A stretch of DNA of 64,000 bases from Shigella phage KNP5: the sequence record KX452698; one strand, written 5' to 3'. The notes under the pieces are model-generated. The model was given only the letters and a program-made list of their open reading frames with translations, searched no databases and was not told the origin of the DNA. This document shows positions 3,109 through 49,703 of the stretch, piece by piece. Every line of letters starts with the position of its first letter. The first letter of the stretch is position 1. The position numbers were made by a program, and so were the translations under genes.

Positions 3109-3486
3109 TTAAATATCAAATTCGTTAAGAACTACATCAAAGATTGCTTCAAGATGCTCAGGTTTAGCTCTGTTACTCAGAATATGACGAATCCAAGTTT
3201 TAACCAAAAGCTTGCGATTAACGCCATTCCAGCAAGGATGAGTCCCTAAATCGCGTTGACGAAAATCATCATCCAAAGCGATTTTGAAGTTGGAACCTTC
3301 CATTGTGATTGAAACCGTGATGCCATTTTCAAATCGCATATAAACGTAGTTAGGAGTCATGCACTGTTCAATTTCGCATACTGATCCATTTTGATGTTTC
3401 CAAAGGCAAATAGTATCAATAGAACCTGCAATACCATTAGAAACATATTTACGTTCAAAGTTGATGTAGTTCATTTTATTCTCCAA
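3109..3486 (-). CDS. hypothetical protein
   Basis: 125-aa ORF downstream of an early-promoter-like element. Confidence 0.55.
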   Translation of the reverse strand: MENKMNYINFERKYVSNGIAGSIDTICLWKHQNGSVCEIEQCMTPNYVYMRFENGITVSITMEGSNFKIALDDDFRQRDLGTHPCWNGVNRKLLVKTWIRHILSNRAKPEHLEAIFDVVLNEFDI

Positions 3487-3510
3487 GATGTTTAATTGCG
3501 GTACAGGTAT

Positions 3511-3539
3511 ATAATATCATATCCTGTACCAAAGTAAAC
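3511..3539 (-). promoter_or_regulatory. T4-type early promoter (GTTTAC -35, 17-nt spacer, TATTAT -10)
   Basis: Reverse complement reads GTTTAC-N17-TATTAT; same architecture recurs upstream of many minus-strand genes. Confidence 0.5.
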
Positions 3540-3541
3540 AA

Positions 3542-3874
3542 TTATTTTACTACTTTCCAGTGCTGCATGTCAAGTTTACCAACTTTTTTCATCTTCTCAA
3601 TTAAGCGTTCGGCACGTTGGCGAGCTGTAACATAATACCATTCACCTAATTCATTTTGTTCAATTTTTCCAACGATTACTGTATTCAATTCATAAATCCA
3701 ACCAGTAAAGAAATTATGAACTTGAACTGTAAAGGTGAAATCTGTTCCCATACCTTCTGTTGTTTCTACTTCAATAATATCACCTTCAACTGCCATTAAG
3801 AACCACATAGTTTCATCGTATTTACCATTGAAGCATTTAGTTTTAACTGTAGCGTTCAGATTAATCGTTTTCAT
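3542..3874 (-). CDS. hypothetical protein
   Basis: 110-aa ORF. Confidence 0.55.
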   Translation of the reverse strand: MKTINLNATVKTKCFNGKYDETMWFLMAVEGDIIEVETTEGMGTDFTFTVQVHNFFTGWIYELNTVIVGKIEQNELGEWYYVTARQRAERLIEKMKKVGKLDMQHWKVVK

Positions 3875-7041: not shown

Positions 7042-7562
7042 GTTGATCCCAGCTCCTTACTTTCAACGTTTTTAACTAATTTGACAGAAACTAATTCGGC
7101 ATCTTGGGTAATCATTACCGGGCCTTCTTTATACTCTTCAAGATATTCTAGAGCTTTCTTTTTAGCTTCTTCCTTCGTATCAGTTTGAGCATAGATATAA
7201 AACATACAACCAGTAATACCTACTACTTTCCACTTAATTTCTTTATCAGTTTTAATTTCAAATTTACTGACAGAATCATCTTTTTGAACTTCTTCGAAAA
7301 AAGAATATTCTAACATATAAGCAATTGAAAATAACGGGCTAACTTTATAGGATTCGCCCATTACATCAACAGCTTTATACCAGCGGTCATCAATTTCGCG
7401 TTTAATGCTAATAACATTTTTCGCAGGATCTATTTTTACTTTAAATGAATTTTCCCCAATAAACTGAGCAATTCGTTTATTGGCCCCACAAGTTTCATTA
7501 AAAATATCTTTATATCCAGCTTTAAAACGATAAACCTTATCTTCTTCAAACCATTCGCTCAT
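7035..7562 (-). CDS. hypothetical protein (cd.3 position)
   Basis: 175-aa ORF. Confidence 0.55.
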   Translation of the reverse strand: MSEWFEEDKVYRFKAGYKDIFNETCGANKRIAQFIGENSFKVKIDPAKNVISIKREIDDRWYKAVDVMGESYKVSPLFSIAYMLEYSFFEEVQKDDSVSKFEIKTDKEIKWKVVGITGCMFYIYAQTDTKEEAKKKALEYLEEYKEGPVMITQDAELVSVKLVKNVESKELGSTC

Positions 7563-7589
7563 TTCAATTTCCTCATTTGTTTTGGTAGA

Positions 7590-7622
7590 GCTATAATATC
7601 ACAACTCTACCATAAAGTAAAC
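7590..7622 (-). promoter_or_regulatory. T4-type early promoter
   Basis: Plus-strand gtaaac (GTTTAC on the minus strand) with AT-rich -10 about 17 nt downstream; directly upstream of ORF starting at 7562. Confidence 0.5.
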
Positions 7623-7624
7623 CA

Positions 7625-7906
7625 TTAAATTGCTTTGAATTCTGATGTCTGTGATTCAAAGCGAATATCGCCTTTGATGACTAGCTCAGCATCAAGACCA
7701 AATACGACAATGATATGCGCGGAACCCGGATACAGCGTAATTGCAATAGAATCCACCTGGTCTGGAAGCAAAGTGTTCAATACATGAGTCACTTGAGCAT
7801 GAATTCGAAGCTCAGCTGCATTATCAAGCTTTTCAAACATATTATTAGCGATAATTTGACTAAACACTACTTCTACGATTTTAGAATAAGTCGGAAACAT
7901 ATTCAC
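7625..7906 (-). CDS. hypothetical protein (cd.4 position)
   Basis: 93-aa ORF. Confidence 0.5.
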   Translation of the reverse strand: MNMFPTYSKIVEVVFSQIIANNMFEKLDNAAELRIHAQVTHVLNTLLPDQVDSIAITLYPGSAHIIVVFGLDAELVIKGDIRFESQTSEFKAI

Positions 7907-46403: not shown

Positions 46404-46676
46404 TTATTTAAAACGGATAGTCGAATCCTTGAAGAATAGACCAGAACATACGGTTCCTTCTACTTTCTGCCCGGTAGGTCCAATAGCACGAAATCCAGTA
46501 TGTTGGAAATCATTTTCAGAGCAACCGAACCAATTGTATCCAGTGATTTCAATATTAGTAAACCCACTTGAAGACAAAACTTTGGTTGCATTATCAGCGT
46601 CAGTACATCCTACTAAAGATACTGCTAATACTAATGCCGCGATAGAACGATTAACATATTTCATAATTTCACTCAA
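46404..46676 (-). CDS. small lipoprotein (39.1 position)
   Basis: 90-aa ORF with signal peptide and lipobox LVGCT; GC hairpin with flanking A/T runs at 46390-46401 just downstream. Confidence 0.55.
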   Translation of the reverse strand: MSEIMKYVNRSIAALVLAVSLVGCTDADNATKVLSSSGFTNIEITGYNWFGCSENDFQHTGFRAIGPTGQKVEGTVCSGLFFKDSTIRFK

Positions 46677-47040
46677 ATTTAATGGCTTGAAGGAGACTAA
46701 TAATTCTCAAGCGGCTTCTTTCATCTTTAACCGTAAAAGAAAGAGGGTCGCCAGATTTCATAGTGATAGTGCATTCAAAACTAAAATCTTCAGGAACTTC
46801 TTCGAAGAAGTCAAATTCTTCATCATATATTAGAACATTACTCTGAAAACTGTGAAGAATTTTTCCGTCATTTCCAGATGCTGTACTAATCATTGTAACA
46901 TTATTACCTTTCATATCTTCAACGATAAATTCGCTTGTAGATATTACGGCATTAATAGAACCATTCCTATAAATAGAAGAAAGCAGATATTTCTTTTCTT
47001 CACCTTCACGAACACGATATTTCTTACCGATTTTAAACAT
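46669..47040 (-). CDS. hypothetical protein (39.2 position)
   Basis: 123 aa from ATG at 47040. Confidence 0.5.
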   Translation of the reverse strand: MFKIGKKYRVREGEEKKYLLSSIYRNGSINAVISTSEFIVEDMKGNNVTMISTASGNDGKILHSFQSNVLIYDEEFDFFEEVPEDFSFECTITMKSGDPLSFTVKDERSRLRIISLLQAIKFE

Positions 47041-47042
47041 AA

Positions 47043-47219
47043 TCACCCTTTAAGTAAGTCGTAAAATCCACCATTCACATGCTTAGGAGCAGAAGGCCGA
47101 CGAGTAGACAGACGATGACATTTAGGACAAACATCATTTTCTCGTTCAGAAATCTTTTTAATTTTTTCATATTCATGCCCGCAATCTTCGGATTGGCATT
47201 TATAATCATACATTGGCAT
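47043..47219 (-). CDS. zinc-ribbon protein (58 aa)
   Basis: Hand-translated MPMYDYKCQSEDCGHEYEKIKKISERENDVCPKCHRLSTRRPSAPKHVNGGFYDLLKG; two CxxC pairs; packed between neighbours. Below the track threshold. Confidence 0.5.
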   Translation of the reverse strand: MPMYDYKCQSEDCGHEYEKIKKISERENDVCPKCHRLSTRRPSAPKHVNGGFYDLLKG

Positions 47220-47221
47220 AA

Positions 47222-47641
47222 TTATTCCTTAAAGTGTGCTTTCAACATCTGATACAAGGACCATGCCTGTTCATTATTTTCAATAGTAACTTTCATGATA
47301 GGAAATTCTGTGAAATCTTCTATTTGTTCTTGCTCTTCCTGCTCTTGCTCTTCAGCTGCCTGATATGGATTTTCCACTTCATCAAAGAACCCAGCTTCAC
47401 TTTTTGAAAGCCAAATAAAGTCTTCATCCAAAACATCTTTATCAGGAGATAGTACTAAATTTCCAGTAGATGACAAAATTTTAATAGGACGCCCAAGAGC
47501 GTCCACATCTAAAATTTTAAAAGGATACATACCTAAACGGCGCGCATAGATTCCGTTATTAATATGGTCTTTAATAAAATTTTCTTGAGCTTGTTTATTT
47601 TTAAATTGATACCATTTATTAACTTCAAATCTAATAGCCAT
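47222..47641 (-). CDS. hypothetical acidic protein (goF position)
   Basis: 139-aa ORF with a poly-Glu/Gln tract ([14 protein letters not shown]); size close to T4 goF but not sequence-confirmed. Confidence 0.45.
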
Positions 47642-47856: not shown

Positions 47857-48029
47857 TACAATTTCCTCATTAATTGAACAGTGGAGCGATGCGTTTCAGA
47901 AGAGTGGCAGCACCTTTGGCAAATTTTCCATTTTATTCTCCAAGTTGTTTTCTGTATCAGTAGTTGATATTGATATAGTACCATAATCAACTACTGATGT
48001 ATATAGTTTATGAAAAAAAAAATTAAACT

Positions 48030-48527
48030 TTATGCATAGCGAGCTTTGCTATAGTGTTTAATCCAACTTTCAGGAATGACTTTGTATGTTCCTAAAAATA
48101 CCGCGTTGTACAACTTAACGCCATCTTCTACCCATTGATCGGTAATGTATGCACACATAGCGCGAGTACGATGTTTTTGAACAACCCCTTCTTCGTCTTC
48201 GGTAAATTCAAATTCATAAGGAGCAACGAACTTAATAGCTTGACCGAGTTTCCACTTAAAGTCTACACCTACGTGCGAAGTATCAATCGTTTCAATTCCT
48301 TTAGCAGGAACAGCTTTCAAAAACGCAGATTCAAGAAATTTCGCACGAACATAACCAAACTGAGGTTTAGACTTTCCATCTTTAGGAATGATACGCACTT
48401 TTACTTCAGAATCTTCATCTTTAACACCGTGTTTAAGCTGAATGCTTACAATTTCGACCAATTTTCCTGCTGCTTTAGAACGGGATTTATCAGATACACG
48501 AGCAATTTCACCAATATTAATAATCAT
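48030..48527 (-). CDS. motB: MotB-like protein
   Basis: 165-aa ORF at the T4 motB position (T4 MotB 162 aa); C-terminal motif CAYITDQWVEDGVKLYNAV shared with the next ORF. Confidence 0.55.
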   Translation of the reverse strand: MIINIGEIARVSDKSRSKAAGKLVEIVSIQLKHGVKDEDSEVKVRIIPKDGKSKPQFGYVRAKFLESAFLKAVPAKGIETIDTSHVGVDFKWKLGQAIKFVAPYEFEFTEDEEGVVQKHRTRAMCAYITDQWVEDGVKLYNAVFLGTYKVIPESWIKHYSKARYA

Positions 48528-48603
48528 AGTTATCTCTCACCTGTTAAAAAGATTTTATACTCCACAGGACCATTATACTCTGGTCCCAAGAGTTTGTAAA
48601 CTA

Positions 48604-49143
48604 TTAATTCAAAATAGCTACCACTGCACTACGAGGTACTACACTAAAATCACCTGCATGAACAACGTTCAGAAGTTCAACACCATCTTCAATCCACTGG
48701 TCTGTTACCCAACCACAGACCGAAATAAATGGGGTCTTGATAGCTACAGCACGAGTTAGAAGGTCAGTAGGATCGCATTCTTGGAAGAGGATAAGCTCTG
48801 CTTCAAAGACTATAGTTTTAATTACTTCATCATTATCTAAGCGTTGTGCTCGAATCACATAAGCTTTATTCTTATCATACCAATTACTTTTTGAAAAACT
48901 TTTAACCACAAACTCGCCTTCACCCAAAACACTGGTCAATGCTTTATAACCCAAACTTAGTTCAGTAGTTTTAATTTCAGTTTCAACCAGTTTGTAGGTT
49001 TTGCCGATTTCAATAGCGGTAGTCATAGTAGGTTCCTTAATTTCCAGTGGTTTAACAGGGCATACATAAGTGCTTACAACATCAAAATCAATCAGTTTAG
49101 CTACCGGATTTGGTGTGTATTCAGGATTATAATTAAATTTCAT
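48604..49143 (-). CDS. MotB paralogue (motB.1 position)
   Basis: 179-aa ORF; C-terminal CGWVTDQWIEDGVELLNVV parallels MotB. Confidence 0.5.
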   Translation of the reverse strand: MKFNYNPEYTPNPVAKLIDFDVVSTYVCPVKPLEIKEPTMTTAIEIGKTYKLVETEIKTTELSLGYKALTSVLGEGEFVVKSFSKSNWYDKNKAYVIRAQRLDNDEVIKTIVFEAELILFQECDPTDLLTRAVAIKTPFISVCGWVTDQWIEDGVELLNVVHAGDFSVVPRSAVVAILN

Positions 49144-49145
49144 AA

Positions 49146-49646
49146 TTATCTCATTTCAATAAAATCTATAAGTTCAGCATGGGATTTACGGAACATTACT
49201 TGATGTCCGCCAATGATAACTTGGTCATCTGGCACTTCGTATACAGCAAGATAAAATCCTTTAGAAGATAATTCTTCACGCTCTTCTCGTGTGAACCATC
49301 TCATCATATCATATTCACTAGCGAAAGCAAAATGATAAAGAGCTATAAACCATCCTGGAATATAGTGATCTACGCCTACATAATCTTTCTTGAACTTAGT
49401 ATTAATTACTGTATTAGCGTTTTTAACTAATAGTTTATCTTCGTGTGGTAAAGGAATTCTTTTATTATTATCGCTATGATGCATAAAATTAGGTCTGTCA
49501 TAACCTACGTGTAATAACCACTCTTCGCTCCATGAATCTATTATACTCCTGTATGGCGTTATTTGAACACAAAGATTTCGACGTATTGTTATAGCATCTT
49601 CATAATTAAGAATACTAAAAGATGATTCAACACGATAAATTTTCAT
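49146..49646 (-). CDS. hypothetical protein (motB.2 position)
   Basis: ATG at 49646 preceded by GAGGA gives MKIYRVESSFSILNYEDA... (166 aa); early promoter just upstream. Confidence 0.5.
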   Translation of the reverse strand: MKIYRVESSFSILNYEDAITIRRNLCVQITPYRSIIDSWSEEWLLHVGYDRPNFMHHSDNNKRIPLPHEDKLLVKNANTVINTKFKKDYVGVDHYIPGWFIALYHFAFASEYDMMRWFTREEREELSSKGFYLAVYEVPDDQVIIGGHQVMFRKSHAELIDFIEMR

Positions 49647-49673
49647 TTTATTATCCTCAGTAGCTATGGTGTT

Positions 49674-49703
49674 ATAATACCACAACTAACCGAGGAAGTA
49701 AAC
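49674..49703 (-). promoter_or_regulatory. T4-type early promoter (GTTTAC-N18-TATTAT)
   Basis: Verified on the minus strand between dexA and the downstream ORF. Confidence 0.5.

What the first reader, a model, noticed from the sequence alone, without database searches (positions are those of the whole stretch)
48030..49143. Adjacent paralogues sharing a C-terminal TDQW(V/I)EDGV module
The two neighbouring ORFs (165 and 179 aa) have unrelated N-termini but end in the same motif: AMCAYITDQWVEDGVKLYNAVFLGTYKVIPES versus ISVCGWVTDQWIEDGVELLNVVHAGDFSVVPRS. This suggests a duplicated or shuffled C-terminal domain in the MotB region. The function of the shared module is not evident from the sequence.
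Basis: seen in the sequence. Interest (0 to 1): 0.4.

Follow-up and report, generated by a model that had tools for sequence, protein, structure and literature searches.

The report
MotB and MotB.1 share a barrel domain
Two neighbouring early genes of a T4-like phage, motB and the gene in the motB.1 position, really do end in the same small beta-barrel domain behind different front halves, but this was already published for T4-like phages in 2021, so the finding is correct and ordinary.

Summary
The window is a Tequatrovirus (T4-like) genome. ORF 48030-48527(-) is MotB, a full-length Pfam PF17613 match. ORF 48604-49143(-) sits where T4 has motB.1. Their C-termini align at 16/32 identities (BLASTP E 4e-11; profile-profile E 7e-16 over 38 columns).

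The module is not a free-standing motif. It forms strands 2-5 of a five-stranded C-terminal barrel that looks SH3-like (KOW/Tudor-like). MotB carries an extra hairpin between strands 1 and 2.

The copies are old paralogues: 54% nucleotide identity and 31% at third codon positions. They belong to a small family confined to T4-like phages (about 25 clusters at 50% identity), in which this barrel always sits at the C-terminus behind interchangeable N-terminal barrels.

Patterson-West et al. 2021 (PMC7827196) already reported the shared C-terminal domain, the different N-termini and a probable duplication. Novelty: already known.

By-products that may be new:
- The T4 reference sequence has one extra G that cuts MotB.1 off inside this module (119 aa instead of 143). 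Every re-sequenced T4 record listed lacks it. Published MotB.1 assays report a 13.8 kDa protein, the size of the 119-aa form.
- The fold evidence points to SH3-like rather than the published OB-fold prediction.
- The mosaic breakpoint against T4 lies at the module's start.

The parts
48030..48527 (-). motB, 165 aa (stop codon included): basic two-domain DNA-binding early protein
   Evidence: Pfam PF17613 over its full length, E 9e-100. phrog_1671, E 2e-76. About 95% nucleotide identity to T4 motB. pI 9.2.
48324..48527 (-). MotB N-terminal barrel (residues 1-68), KOW-like, net charge +5
48033..48260 (-). MotB C-terminal barrel (residues 90-165); long hairpin between strands 1 and 2 (about residues 104-122)
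   Evidence: AF2 block pLDDT 85-95 (82 for the last few residues). Strands 97-112, 115-134, 137-144, 147-152, a 3-10 helix, then 156-159. The hairpin tip is the only variable patch against T4.
48051..48164 (-). Shared module in MotB (residues 122-159): RAMCAYITDQWVEDGVKLYNAVFLGTYKVIPESWIKHY, strands 2-5 of the barrel
   Evidence: hhalign 38 columns, E 6.7e-16. BLASTP E 4e-11.
48572..48600 (-). Sigma-70 type (T4 early-like) promoter for motB in the 76-nt gap after the upstream gene's stop codon
   Evidence: TTTACA-17-TATAAT, 11 of 12 matches. The 40-column blocks over this gap are 95-100% identical to T4. Function is inferred, not shown.
48604..49143 (-). Gene in the motB.1 position, 179 aa (stop codon included): acidic protein, pI 4.8
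   Evidence: Lies between motB.2 and motB, as in T4. phrog_2333 over its full length, E 2e-81. 197 homologues, all from T4-like phages or phage contigs.
49018..49143 (-). N-terminal extension (residues 1-42), predicted disordered, carrying the conserved short motif DFDVVSTYVCPVKPLEI (residues 19-35, nt 49039-49089)
   Evidence: pLDDT below 50, yet many invariant residues across homologues. The motif D-x-D-[VILT]-x-[SCH]-[MATV]-[YF] recurs at other positions in 9 of 20 representative relatives and in none of the 120 MotB hits.
48775..49017 (-). N-terminal barrel of the 179-aa protein (residues 43-123), likely in the LSm/SH3-like GoF/MotB.1/Frd.2 family
   Evidence: AF2 strand-helix-four strands, but low confidence. 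Foldseek match to T4 MotB.1 (P39415), E 3.8e-5 over 120 columns. The window's GoF paralogue cross-hits phrog_2333 positions 43-140, E 0.0025. Family described in PMC12152347.
48607..48774 (-). C-terminal barrel of the 179-aa protein (residues 124-179): DPTDLLTRAVAIKTPF... to the end
   Evidence: AF2 strands 132-136, 141-152, 155-162, 165-170, a 3-10 helix, then 174-178. phrog_1671 (MotB-like) matches residues 122-177, E 1.3e-16. hhalign extends to strand 1 when intermediate family members are included.
48613..48726 (-). Shared module in the 179-aa protein (residues 140-177): ISVCGWVTDQWIEDGVELLNVVHAGDFSVVPRSAVVAI, net charge about -4
   Evidence: Its 5' edge coincides with the point where identity to T4 jumps from 15-50% to 72-100%.

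Best explanation
These are motB and the motB.1-position gene of a T4-like phage. They are old tandem paralogues that share a homologous C-terminal domain.

What the module is. The 32-38 aa module forms strands 2-5, plus the short 3-10 helix, of a five-stranded small beta-barrel that looks SH3-like (KOW/Tudor-like). The whole barrel is homologous. MotB has a roughly 17-20 aa hairpin inserted between strands 1 and 2, and the 179-aa protein lacks it. Each protein puts a different small barrel in front. MotB has a basic KOW-like domain. The 179-aa protein has an acidic LSm/SH3-like domain of the GoF/MotB.1/Frd.2 kind, preceded by a disordered extension.

How it arose. The pair came from duplication followed by exchange of the N-terminal part. 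In today's phages the N-terminal part of motB.1 is a swappable cassette, bounded on one side by the end of motB.2 and on the other by the start of the conserved module.

How it most likely works (inferred, about 45% likely). The shared barrel is a common docking or self-association unit rather than the main DNA-contacting surface. It is neutral to acidic, and its invariant surface-type residues are D, Q, W, E, D/E and N. In MotB, the basic KOW-like domain and the basic tail would hold DNA. The barrel would supply the second valency needed for the published DNA compaction and for disturbing H-NS on DNA. In the 179-aa protein the same barrel would bring a different N-terminal domain, possibly RNA- or protein-binding, to the same partner.

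Shown here: homology, domain boundaries, age of the split, distribution and mosaicism. Inferred: what the barrel does.
For: Identity of the genes.

Homology of the module: BLASTP E 4e-11; Pfam motB model on residues 141-174; hhalign E 6.7e-16.

Whole-domain homology:
- The strand order is the same in both AF2 models: strands 1 to 4, a 3-10 helix, then strand 5.
- Intermediate family members (P0251, P0253, P0255) combine the MotB.1-type DPTDLL start with a MotB-like 'PVEFEF' hairpin.
- Local hhalign grows from 38 to 49-50 columns when they are included.
- phrog_1671 matches residues 122-177.

Old paralogy: 54% nucleotide identity and 31% at third positions. Two sequence subtypes exist (KLYNxVF versus ELLNVVH), with 60-71% identity within a type and 46% between types.

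Domain shuffling: the barrel is always C-terminal. It follows KOW-like, single LSm-like or doubled LSm-like N-termini in only about 25 clusters among 1.84 billion representatives.

Cassette exchange: identity to T4 is 15-50% across the N-terminal part, then 72-100% from nt 48725 onward.

Charge argument.

MotB biology: non-specific DNA binding, co-purification with H-NS/StpA, a twofold effect on burst size (PMC6070864) and an altered H-NS footprint (PMC7827196).

Prior publication of the shared C-terminal domain.
Against: - The AF2 model of the 179-aa protein has low confidence (mean pLDDT 56), so its domain picture rests mainly on secondary structure and on homology to MotB.
- The fold searches used whole two-domain models, so individual hits cannot be assigned to the C-terminal barrel rather than the N-terminal one.
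- Extension of the homology to strand 1 needs the intermediate sequences. The pure subgroup comparison stops at 38 columns.
- The functional part is inference from charge and conservation only.
- The published prediction is that the MotB C-terminal domain is an OB-fold DNA-binding domain (PMC7827196). No experiment separates the two domains.
Confidence: 0.8

Rival explanations
1. The shared barrel is itself the nucleic-acid-binding domain, as in the published OB-fold/cold-shock-like prediction. Both proteins would then be DNA or RNA binders through their C-termini, with the N-termini modulating this.
Confidence: 0.3
2. The similarity comes from recent gene conversion or ectopic recombination between the 3' ends of two adjacent genes, not from an old duplication kept by selection.
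For: The genes are adjacent and in the same orientation. A 27-nt direct repeat at 78% identity lies at the core (48117-48143 and 48679-48705).
Against: Nucleotide identity over the 96-nt module is only 54%, and 31% at third codon positions, which is near saturation. Each paralogue has its own conserved signature across many phages.
Confidence: 0.03
3. Conservation of the 3' end of the motB.1-position gene reflects a DNA-level signal, such as an upstream element of the motB early promoter that starts 4 nt after the stop codon, rather than selection on a protein module.
For: The strong promoter-like site at 48600..48572 directly follows the module. This DNA block is 82-100% identical to T4, whereas the N-terminal part is not alignable.
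Against: The same peptide is conserved at the end of motB itself, with different codons and no such promoter downstream. Distant relatives keep the amino-acid motif at 40-46% protein identity. A promoter element may add to DNA conservation within Tequatrovirus but cannot explain the protein similarity.
Confidence: 0.05
4. The resemblance is chance or convergence on a short motif.
For: Only about 32-38 residues align in direct pairwise comparison.
Against: E 4e-11 pairwise, E 7e-16 profile-profile, and a Pfam score above the curated cut-off. A graded series of intermediates exists.
Confidence: 0.01

Closest known systems
T4 MotB (Pfam PF17613; phrog_1671), a phage nucleoid-associated DNA-binding protein
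   Same: The 165-aa ORF is a MotB orthologue: full-length Pfam match, same locus, about 95% nucleotide identity to T4 motB. The 179-aa ORF shares MotB's C-terminal barrel.
   Different: The window's MotB has a slightly longer hairpin tip (165 aa against 162 aa). The 179-aa protein lacks the KOW-like N-terminal domain and the hairpin, and it is acidic rather than basic.
T4 MotB.1 (UniProt P39415) and the MotB.1 categories 2-4 of Patterson-West et al. 2021 (PMC7827196)
   Same: Same position between motB.2 and motB, and a nearly identical C-terminal barrel (DPTDLL...GWVTDQWIEDGVELLNVVHAG..SVVPRSAVVAILN).
   Different: The N-terminal part is not alignable at DNA level and only weakly similar as protein. 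The window's protein also has a 42-aa extension. It seems to belong to the published group with 'another distinct NTD', but I did not check the paper's category lists. The reference T4 entry is truncated at 119 aa, whereas re-sequenced T4 encodes 143 aa.
GoF/MotB.1/Frd.2 family with an LSm-like (SH3-topology) fold (Kim et al. 2025, PMC12152347)
   Same: The N-terminal barrel of the 179-aa protein appears to belong here. The window also encodes GoF (47222-47641) and a GoF paralogue (46669-47046).
   Different: That paper deals with the N-terminal domains, not the shared C-terminal module. Membership of this particular N-terminal domain rests on weak cross-hits and a low-confidence model.
[not shown]
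   Different: There is no sequence relationship, so the resemblance is at fold level only. The conserved TDQWxEDG hairpin has no counterpart I know of in those families. The Sso7d, Cren7 and integrase comparison was not tested here.

Membership tests
Pfam PF17613 (motB, modifier of transcription) | Whole-protein score above the curated gathering cut-off (25 bits), with a match along the model | tested here: met
   The 165-aa ORF scores 331.6 bits on model positions 1-162 of 162. The 179-aa ORF scores 34.1 bits but only on positions 120-153, so it is a member at domain level only.
MotB.1-type proteins (phrog_2333; MotB.1 group of PMC7827196) | MotB.1-type C-terminal domain (DPTDLL...ELLNVVH) behind a non-KOW N-terminus, encoded directly upstream of motB | tested here: met
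   phrog_2333 over the full length, E 1.8e-81. Synteny. C-terminal subtype signature.
SH3-like small beta-barrel fold | Five antiparallel strands with a 3-10 helix between strands 4 and 5, and structural neighbours that are SH3-like barrels | tested here: met
   [not shown]
OB-fold, cold-shock DNA-binding type (the published prediction for the MotB C-terminal domain) | Five-stranded barrel with a helix between strands 3 and 4, and OB-fold structural neighbours | tested here: not met
   [not shown]
KOW motif domain (MotB N-terminal domain) | SH3-like barrel with the conserved glycine-containing motif between strands 1 and 2, resembling NusG/Spt5 or ribosomal KOW domains | tested here: met
   [not shown]
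LSm-like GoF/MotB.1/Frd.2 family (PMC12152347) | N-terminal bent five-stranded sheet homologous to the GoF and Frd.2 N-terminal domains | tested here: inconclusive
   Foldseek to T4 MotB.1, E 3.8e-5, but the query model has pLDDT 56. The window's GoF paralogue cross-hits phrog_2333, E 0.0025. BLASTP finds no similarity between the N-terminal domains.
Nucleoid-associated, H-NS-antagonising protein (MotB function) | Non-specific DNA binding and compaction, with an altered H-NS footprint | not testable with these tools
   Experimental properties are reported for T4 MotB only (PMC6070864, PMC7827196). Nothing is known for the 179-aa protein.

The most novel reading that the evidence does not exclude
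The conserved acidic and aromatic face of the shared barrel (TDQWxEDG...N) would be a dedicated protein-docking site for one host target, for instance a basic segment of H-NS/StpA or another nucleoid or RNA-polymerase-associated protein. MotB and the MotB.1-type proteins would then be two arms of one host-takeover system that bring different N-terminal barrels to that target. The published lack of a MotB.1 phenotype would be partly an artefact of testing the 119-aa reference form, which is cut off in the middle of this barrel.
Probability: 0.12. Interest if true: 0.55.

Novelty: already known. Interest (0 to 1): 0.2.

Why it matters
The shared C-terminal domain of MotB and MotB.1 is already in the literature, so the finding itself adds nothing new.

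The follow-up does give people working on T4 early proteins three practical points:
- The reference T4 MotB.1 (119 aa, 13.8 kDa) is very probably cut short by a one-base difference found only in the reference record. Full-length MotB.1 (143 aa) carries the complete barrel, so earlier negative functional tests deserve repeating.
- The domain is better described as a second SH3-like barrel than as an OB-fold. That changes which surfaces one would mutate.
- The module boundary is the recombination joint at which different N-terminal cassettes are exchanged. This is a tidy example of domain-level mosaicism in the hyperplastic early regions of T-even phages.

Tried and rejected
- PDB sequence search with both proteins: no relatives; only two chance-level hits, E about 0.7.
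- Pfam gave nothing for the N-terminal part of the 179-aa protein apart from a sub-threshold DUF4978 hit.
- The AF2 model of the 179-aa protein was poor (pLDDT 56), because its 28 homologues are 73-95% identical. I used it only for secondary structure, and its Foldseek results are cautious support only.
- The afdb50 fold library was not available, so cellular structural relatives were not surveyed.
- The Nucleic Acids Research 2021 MotB paper (Son et al., PMC8450097) is not held. I cite its title only, as listed in another paper's references.
- Nine of the 34 hits in the representative search (P0260-P0263, P0266-P0268 and two others) were set aside. Seven are long proteins matched in 4-7 short stretches; the two whose sequences I read are low-complexity repeats.
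- Chance similarity, recent gene conversion and a purely DNA-level signal were considered and rejected.
- tRNA and Rfam scans of the whole window found nothing.

Full report
**What the region is.** The 1.9-kb stretch around the finding matches 680 phage records at DNA level, almost all T4-like phages of Escherichia, Shigella and Yersinia. The best match is 97.6% identical. On the minus strand the gene order is goF, cef, motB, a 179-aa gene, motB.2, dexA, as in T4. ORF 48030-48527 (165 aa) is MotB, with Pfam PF17613 matched end to end (E 9e-100) and phrog_1671 at E 2e-76. ORF 48604-49143 (179 aa) occupies the place of T4 motB.1. It matches phrog_2333 (unknown function) over its full length. Its 197 detectable homologues carry only phage names, or E. 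coli/Shigella/Salmonella names that probably reflect phage DNA in those assemblies.

**Checking the observation.** The quoted peptides are present. BLASTP of the two proteins gives a single significant segment, 16/32 identical, E 4e-11. The Pfam motB model hits the 179-aa protein only at residues 141-174, above the curated cut-off. A profile-profile comparison of 28 and 47 homologues aligns 38 columns, residues 140-177 against 122-159, at E 6.7e-16. A profile of the module finds just these two copies in the window.

**What the module is structurally.**
- The AlphaFold2 model of MotB (47 sequences, mean pLDDT 79, C-terminal part about 82-95) shows two all-beta domains joined by a disordered linker at residues 69-83.
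- The C-terminal domain has strands 97-112, 115-134, 137-144, 147-152, a three-residue helix, then 156-159.
- The model of the 179-aa protein is weak (pLDDT 56), but its C-terminus has the same order of elements: 132-136, 141-152, 155-162, 165-170, a short helix, then 174-178.
- A short helix between strands 4 and 5 is the hallmark of SH3-like small barrels. An OB-fold would have its helix between strands 3 and 4.
- The search used the whole two-domain model, so hits cannot be assigned to one domain.
- I therefore read the shared module as strands 2-5 of an SH3-like barrel, not as the OB-fold predicted earlier by HHpred (PMC7827196). This rests on predicted models.

**How far the homology extends.** A search of 1.84 billion representative proteins with a profile of the module found 34 hits. 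About 25 are genuine. All are 43-251 aa long and all carry the module at the C-terminus. Their sequences fall into four groups:
- KOW-like N-terminus with a MotB-type C-terminus.
- KOW-like N-terminus with a MotB.1-type C-terminus.
- One or two LSm-like N-terminal domains with a MotB.1-type C-terminus.
- A few more distant KOW-plus-barrel proteins.

Some members (P0251, P0253, P0255) begin the domain like MotB.1 (DPTDLL...) but then carry a MotB-like 'PVEFEF' hairpin. With these included, local hhalign extends across a 17-residue gap to pair LTRAVAIKTPF with LGQAIKFVAPY, giving 49-50 columns at E 1e-22 to 2e-27. Without them it stops at 38 columns. The MotB-like PHROG profile matches residues 122-177 of the 179-aa protein at E 1.3e-16. 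The whole barrel is therefore probably homologous, with a variable hairpin between strands 1 and 2.

**Age and mode of origin.**
- The two modules are 54% identical in DNA and 31% at third codon positions. This is an old split kept by selection on the protein, not recent conversion.
- Two subtypes are recognisable (KLYNxVF...PE against ELLNVVH...PR). Identity is 60-71% within a subtype and 46% between them.
- The module occurs at 1683 places in 779 phage records, roughly two per genome.
- Against T4, the window is 15-50% identical (not truly alignable) over the N-terminal part of the 179-aa gene. It then jumps to 72-100% from about nt 48725, which is the first codon of the module, and stays high through motB.
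- The N-terminal part thus behaves as an exchangeable cassette, with the module as one conserved flank.

**Function.** Published work on T4 MotB shows the following:
- It binds host DNA and modified T4 DNA without sequence preference.
- It co-purifies with H-NS and StpA.
- It doubles burst size.
- It alters the H-NS footprint and de-represses some H-NS targets (PMC6070864; PMC7827196).

A later paper, which I could not read, reports DNA compaction according to its title. No experiment assigns these activities to a domain.

In the window, MotB's N-terminal domain is basic (+5) while the module is slightly acidic. The 179-aa protein is acidic overall (pI 4.8), with a module charge of about -4. 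The residues invariant in both paralogues include D, Q, W, E, D/E and N. From this I infer, at roughly 45%, that the barrel is a common docking or self-association unit and that the N-terminal domains supply DNA or other binding. The alternative, that the barrel binds nucleic acid itself, gets about 30%.

**Comparison with the literature.** Patterson-West et al. [quoted passage not shown] They suggest that one gene arose by duplication of the other, and they sort 102 homologues into four categories by N-terminus. Kim et al. 2025 describe the MotB.1 N-terminal domain as an LSm-like/SH3-topology barrel related to GoF and Frd.2.

**By-products.**
- T4 reference truncation. In NC_000866.4/AF158101.6, motB.1 (119 aa) ends ...GWVTDQWIGRWR*. 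An extra G (GGATTGGAAGATGG against GGATTGAAGATGG) shifts the frame inside the module, and the next frame continues EDGVELLNVVHAGEYSVVPRSAVVAILN.
- All thirteen other closely matching records lack that base: eleven T4 or T4T records, plus RB55 and RB59. MT984581 annotates a 143-aa MotB.1 with the complete barrel.
- Kim et al. built their amber constructs from NC_000866.4 and report MotB.1 as 13.8 kDa, the size of the 119-aa form. The paper contains no occurrence of 'frameshift' or 'truncat'.
- A second short motif, D-x-D-[VILT]-x-[SCH]-[MATV]-[YF], often followed by ...P.KPL, lies in the disordered N-terminal extension of the 179-aa protein. It recurs at other positions in 9 of 20 representative relatives, all with a MotB.1-type C-terminus, and in none of the 120 MotB hits. 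I defined the pattern after seeing the sequences, so this is only a lead.
- motB has its own near-consensus promoter 4 nt after the upstream stop codon.
- A stable conserved hairpin lies between motB and cef.

**Verdict.** The feature is real and correctly interpreted, but already described. Interest is low. The T4 reference truncation is the one item worth passing on to people who work on these proteins.

Noticed in passing
L002 (NC_000866.4) locus 3292-3651, record 7291-7650; compare L003 (MT984581.1) 710-1141 and window 48660-48750: The T4 reference has one extra G inside motB.1 (GGATTGGAAGATGG against GGATTGAAGATGG). It truncates MotB.1 at 119 aa in the middle of the shared module. The thirteen other closely matching records (eleven T4 or T4T, plus RB55 and RB59) lack it and would encode 143 aa; MT984581 annotates exactly that. 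The published MotB.1 work built on NC_000866.4 and reports a 13.8 kDa protein, the size of the short form.
   Followed up: yes
window 49039-49089 (-), residues 19-35 of the 179-aa protein: A conserved short motif (DFDVVSTYVCPVKPLEI; pattern D-x-D-[VILT]-x-[SCH]-[MATV]-[YF]) lies in a predicted disordered extension. The same motif sits in the linker or at the N-terminus of 9 of 20 representative relatives, all with a MotB.1-type C-terminus, and in none of the 120 MotB hits. It may be a docking peptide. The pattern was defined after seeing the sequences.
   Followed up: partly
window about 48725 (-): Against T4, DNA identity jumps from 15-50% to 72-100% exactly at the first codons of the shared module. 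The N-terminal part of the motB.1-position gene is a swapped cassette and the module is its conserved flank. A second small variable patch (48170-48209) is the tip of the MotB hairpin.
   Followed up: partly
window 47956-47998 (-), between motB and cef: Strong RNA hairpin (13 + 5 bp, -22 kcal/mol for the 96-nt stretch, z -5.7). The part that was aligned is conserved in T4. A run of ten T precedes it and no T run follows, so it is not a canonical intrinsic terminator. It may be a processing or stability element.
   Followed up: partly
window 48572-48600 (-): Near-consensus sigma-70 promoter (TTTACA-17-TATAAT) in the 76-nt gap upstream of motB, in blocks 95-100% identical to T4. By contrast, the 179-aa gene starts 2 nt after the motB.2 stop codon and is probably co-transcribed with it.
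   Followed up: partly
window 46669-47046 (-) and 47222-47641 (-): The window encodes GoF (139 aa) and a 125-aa GoF paralogue (both phrog_622) at the position where T4 has only a 65-aa gene 39.1. The paralogue also weakly hits the N-terminal region of phrog_2333, which links the GoF-type and MotB.1-type N-terminal barrels.
   Followed up: partly
P0259 (43 aa, metagenomic); compare window 49146-49685: A 43-aa protein joins the first 17 residues of MotB.2 (MKIYRVESSFSIL.YED) directly to the tail of the module (GVELLNVVHAGDFSVVPRSAVVAILN). It looks like a deletion across a shared 'ED' microhomology. The 29-aa RB69 peptide reported in PMC7827196 may have a similar origin.
   Followed up: no
window 49146-49685 (-), motB.2 homologue: Public annotations of this gene disagree ('cell wall hydrolase', 'adenylribosylating enzyme', 'hypothetical'). 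It has no Pfam hit and only an unknown-function PHROG. The mechanical ORF starts at a TTG 13 codons upstream of the ATG used in T4.
   Followed up: no
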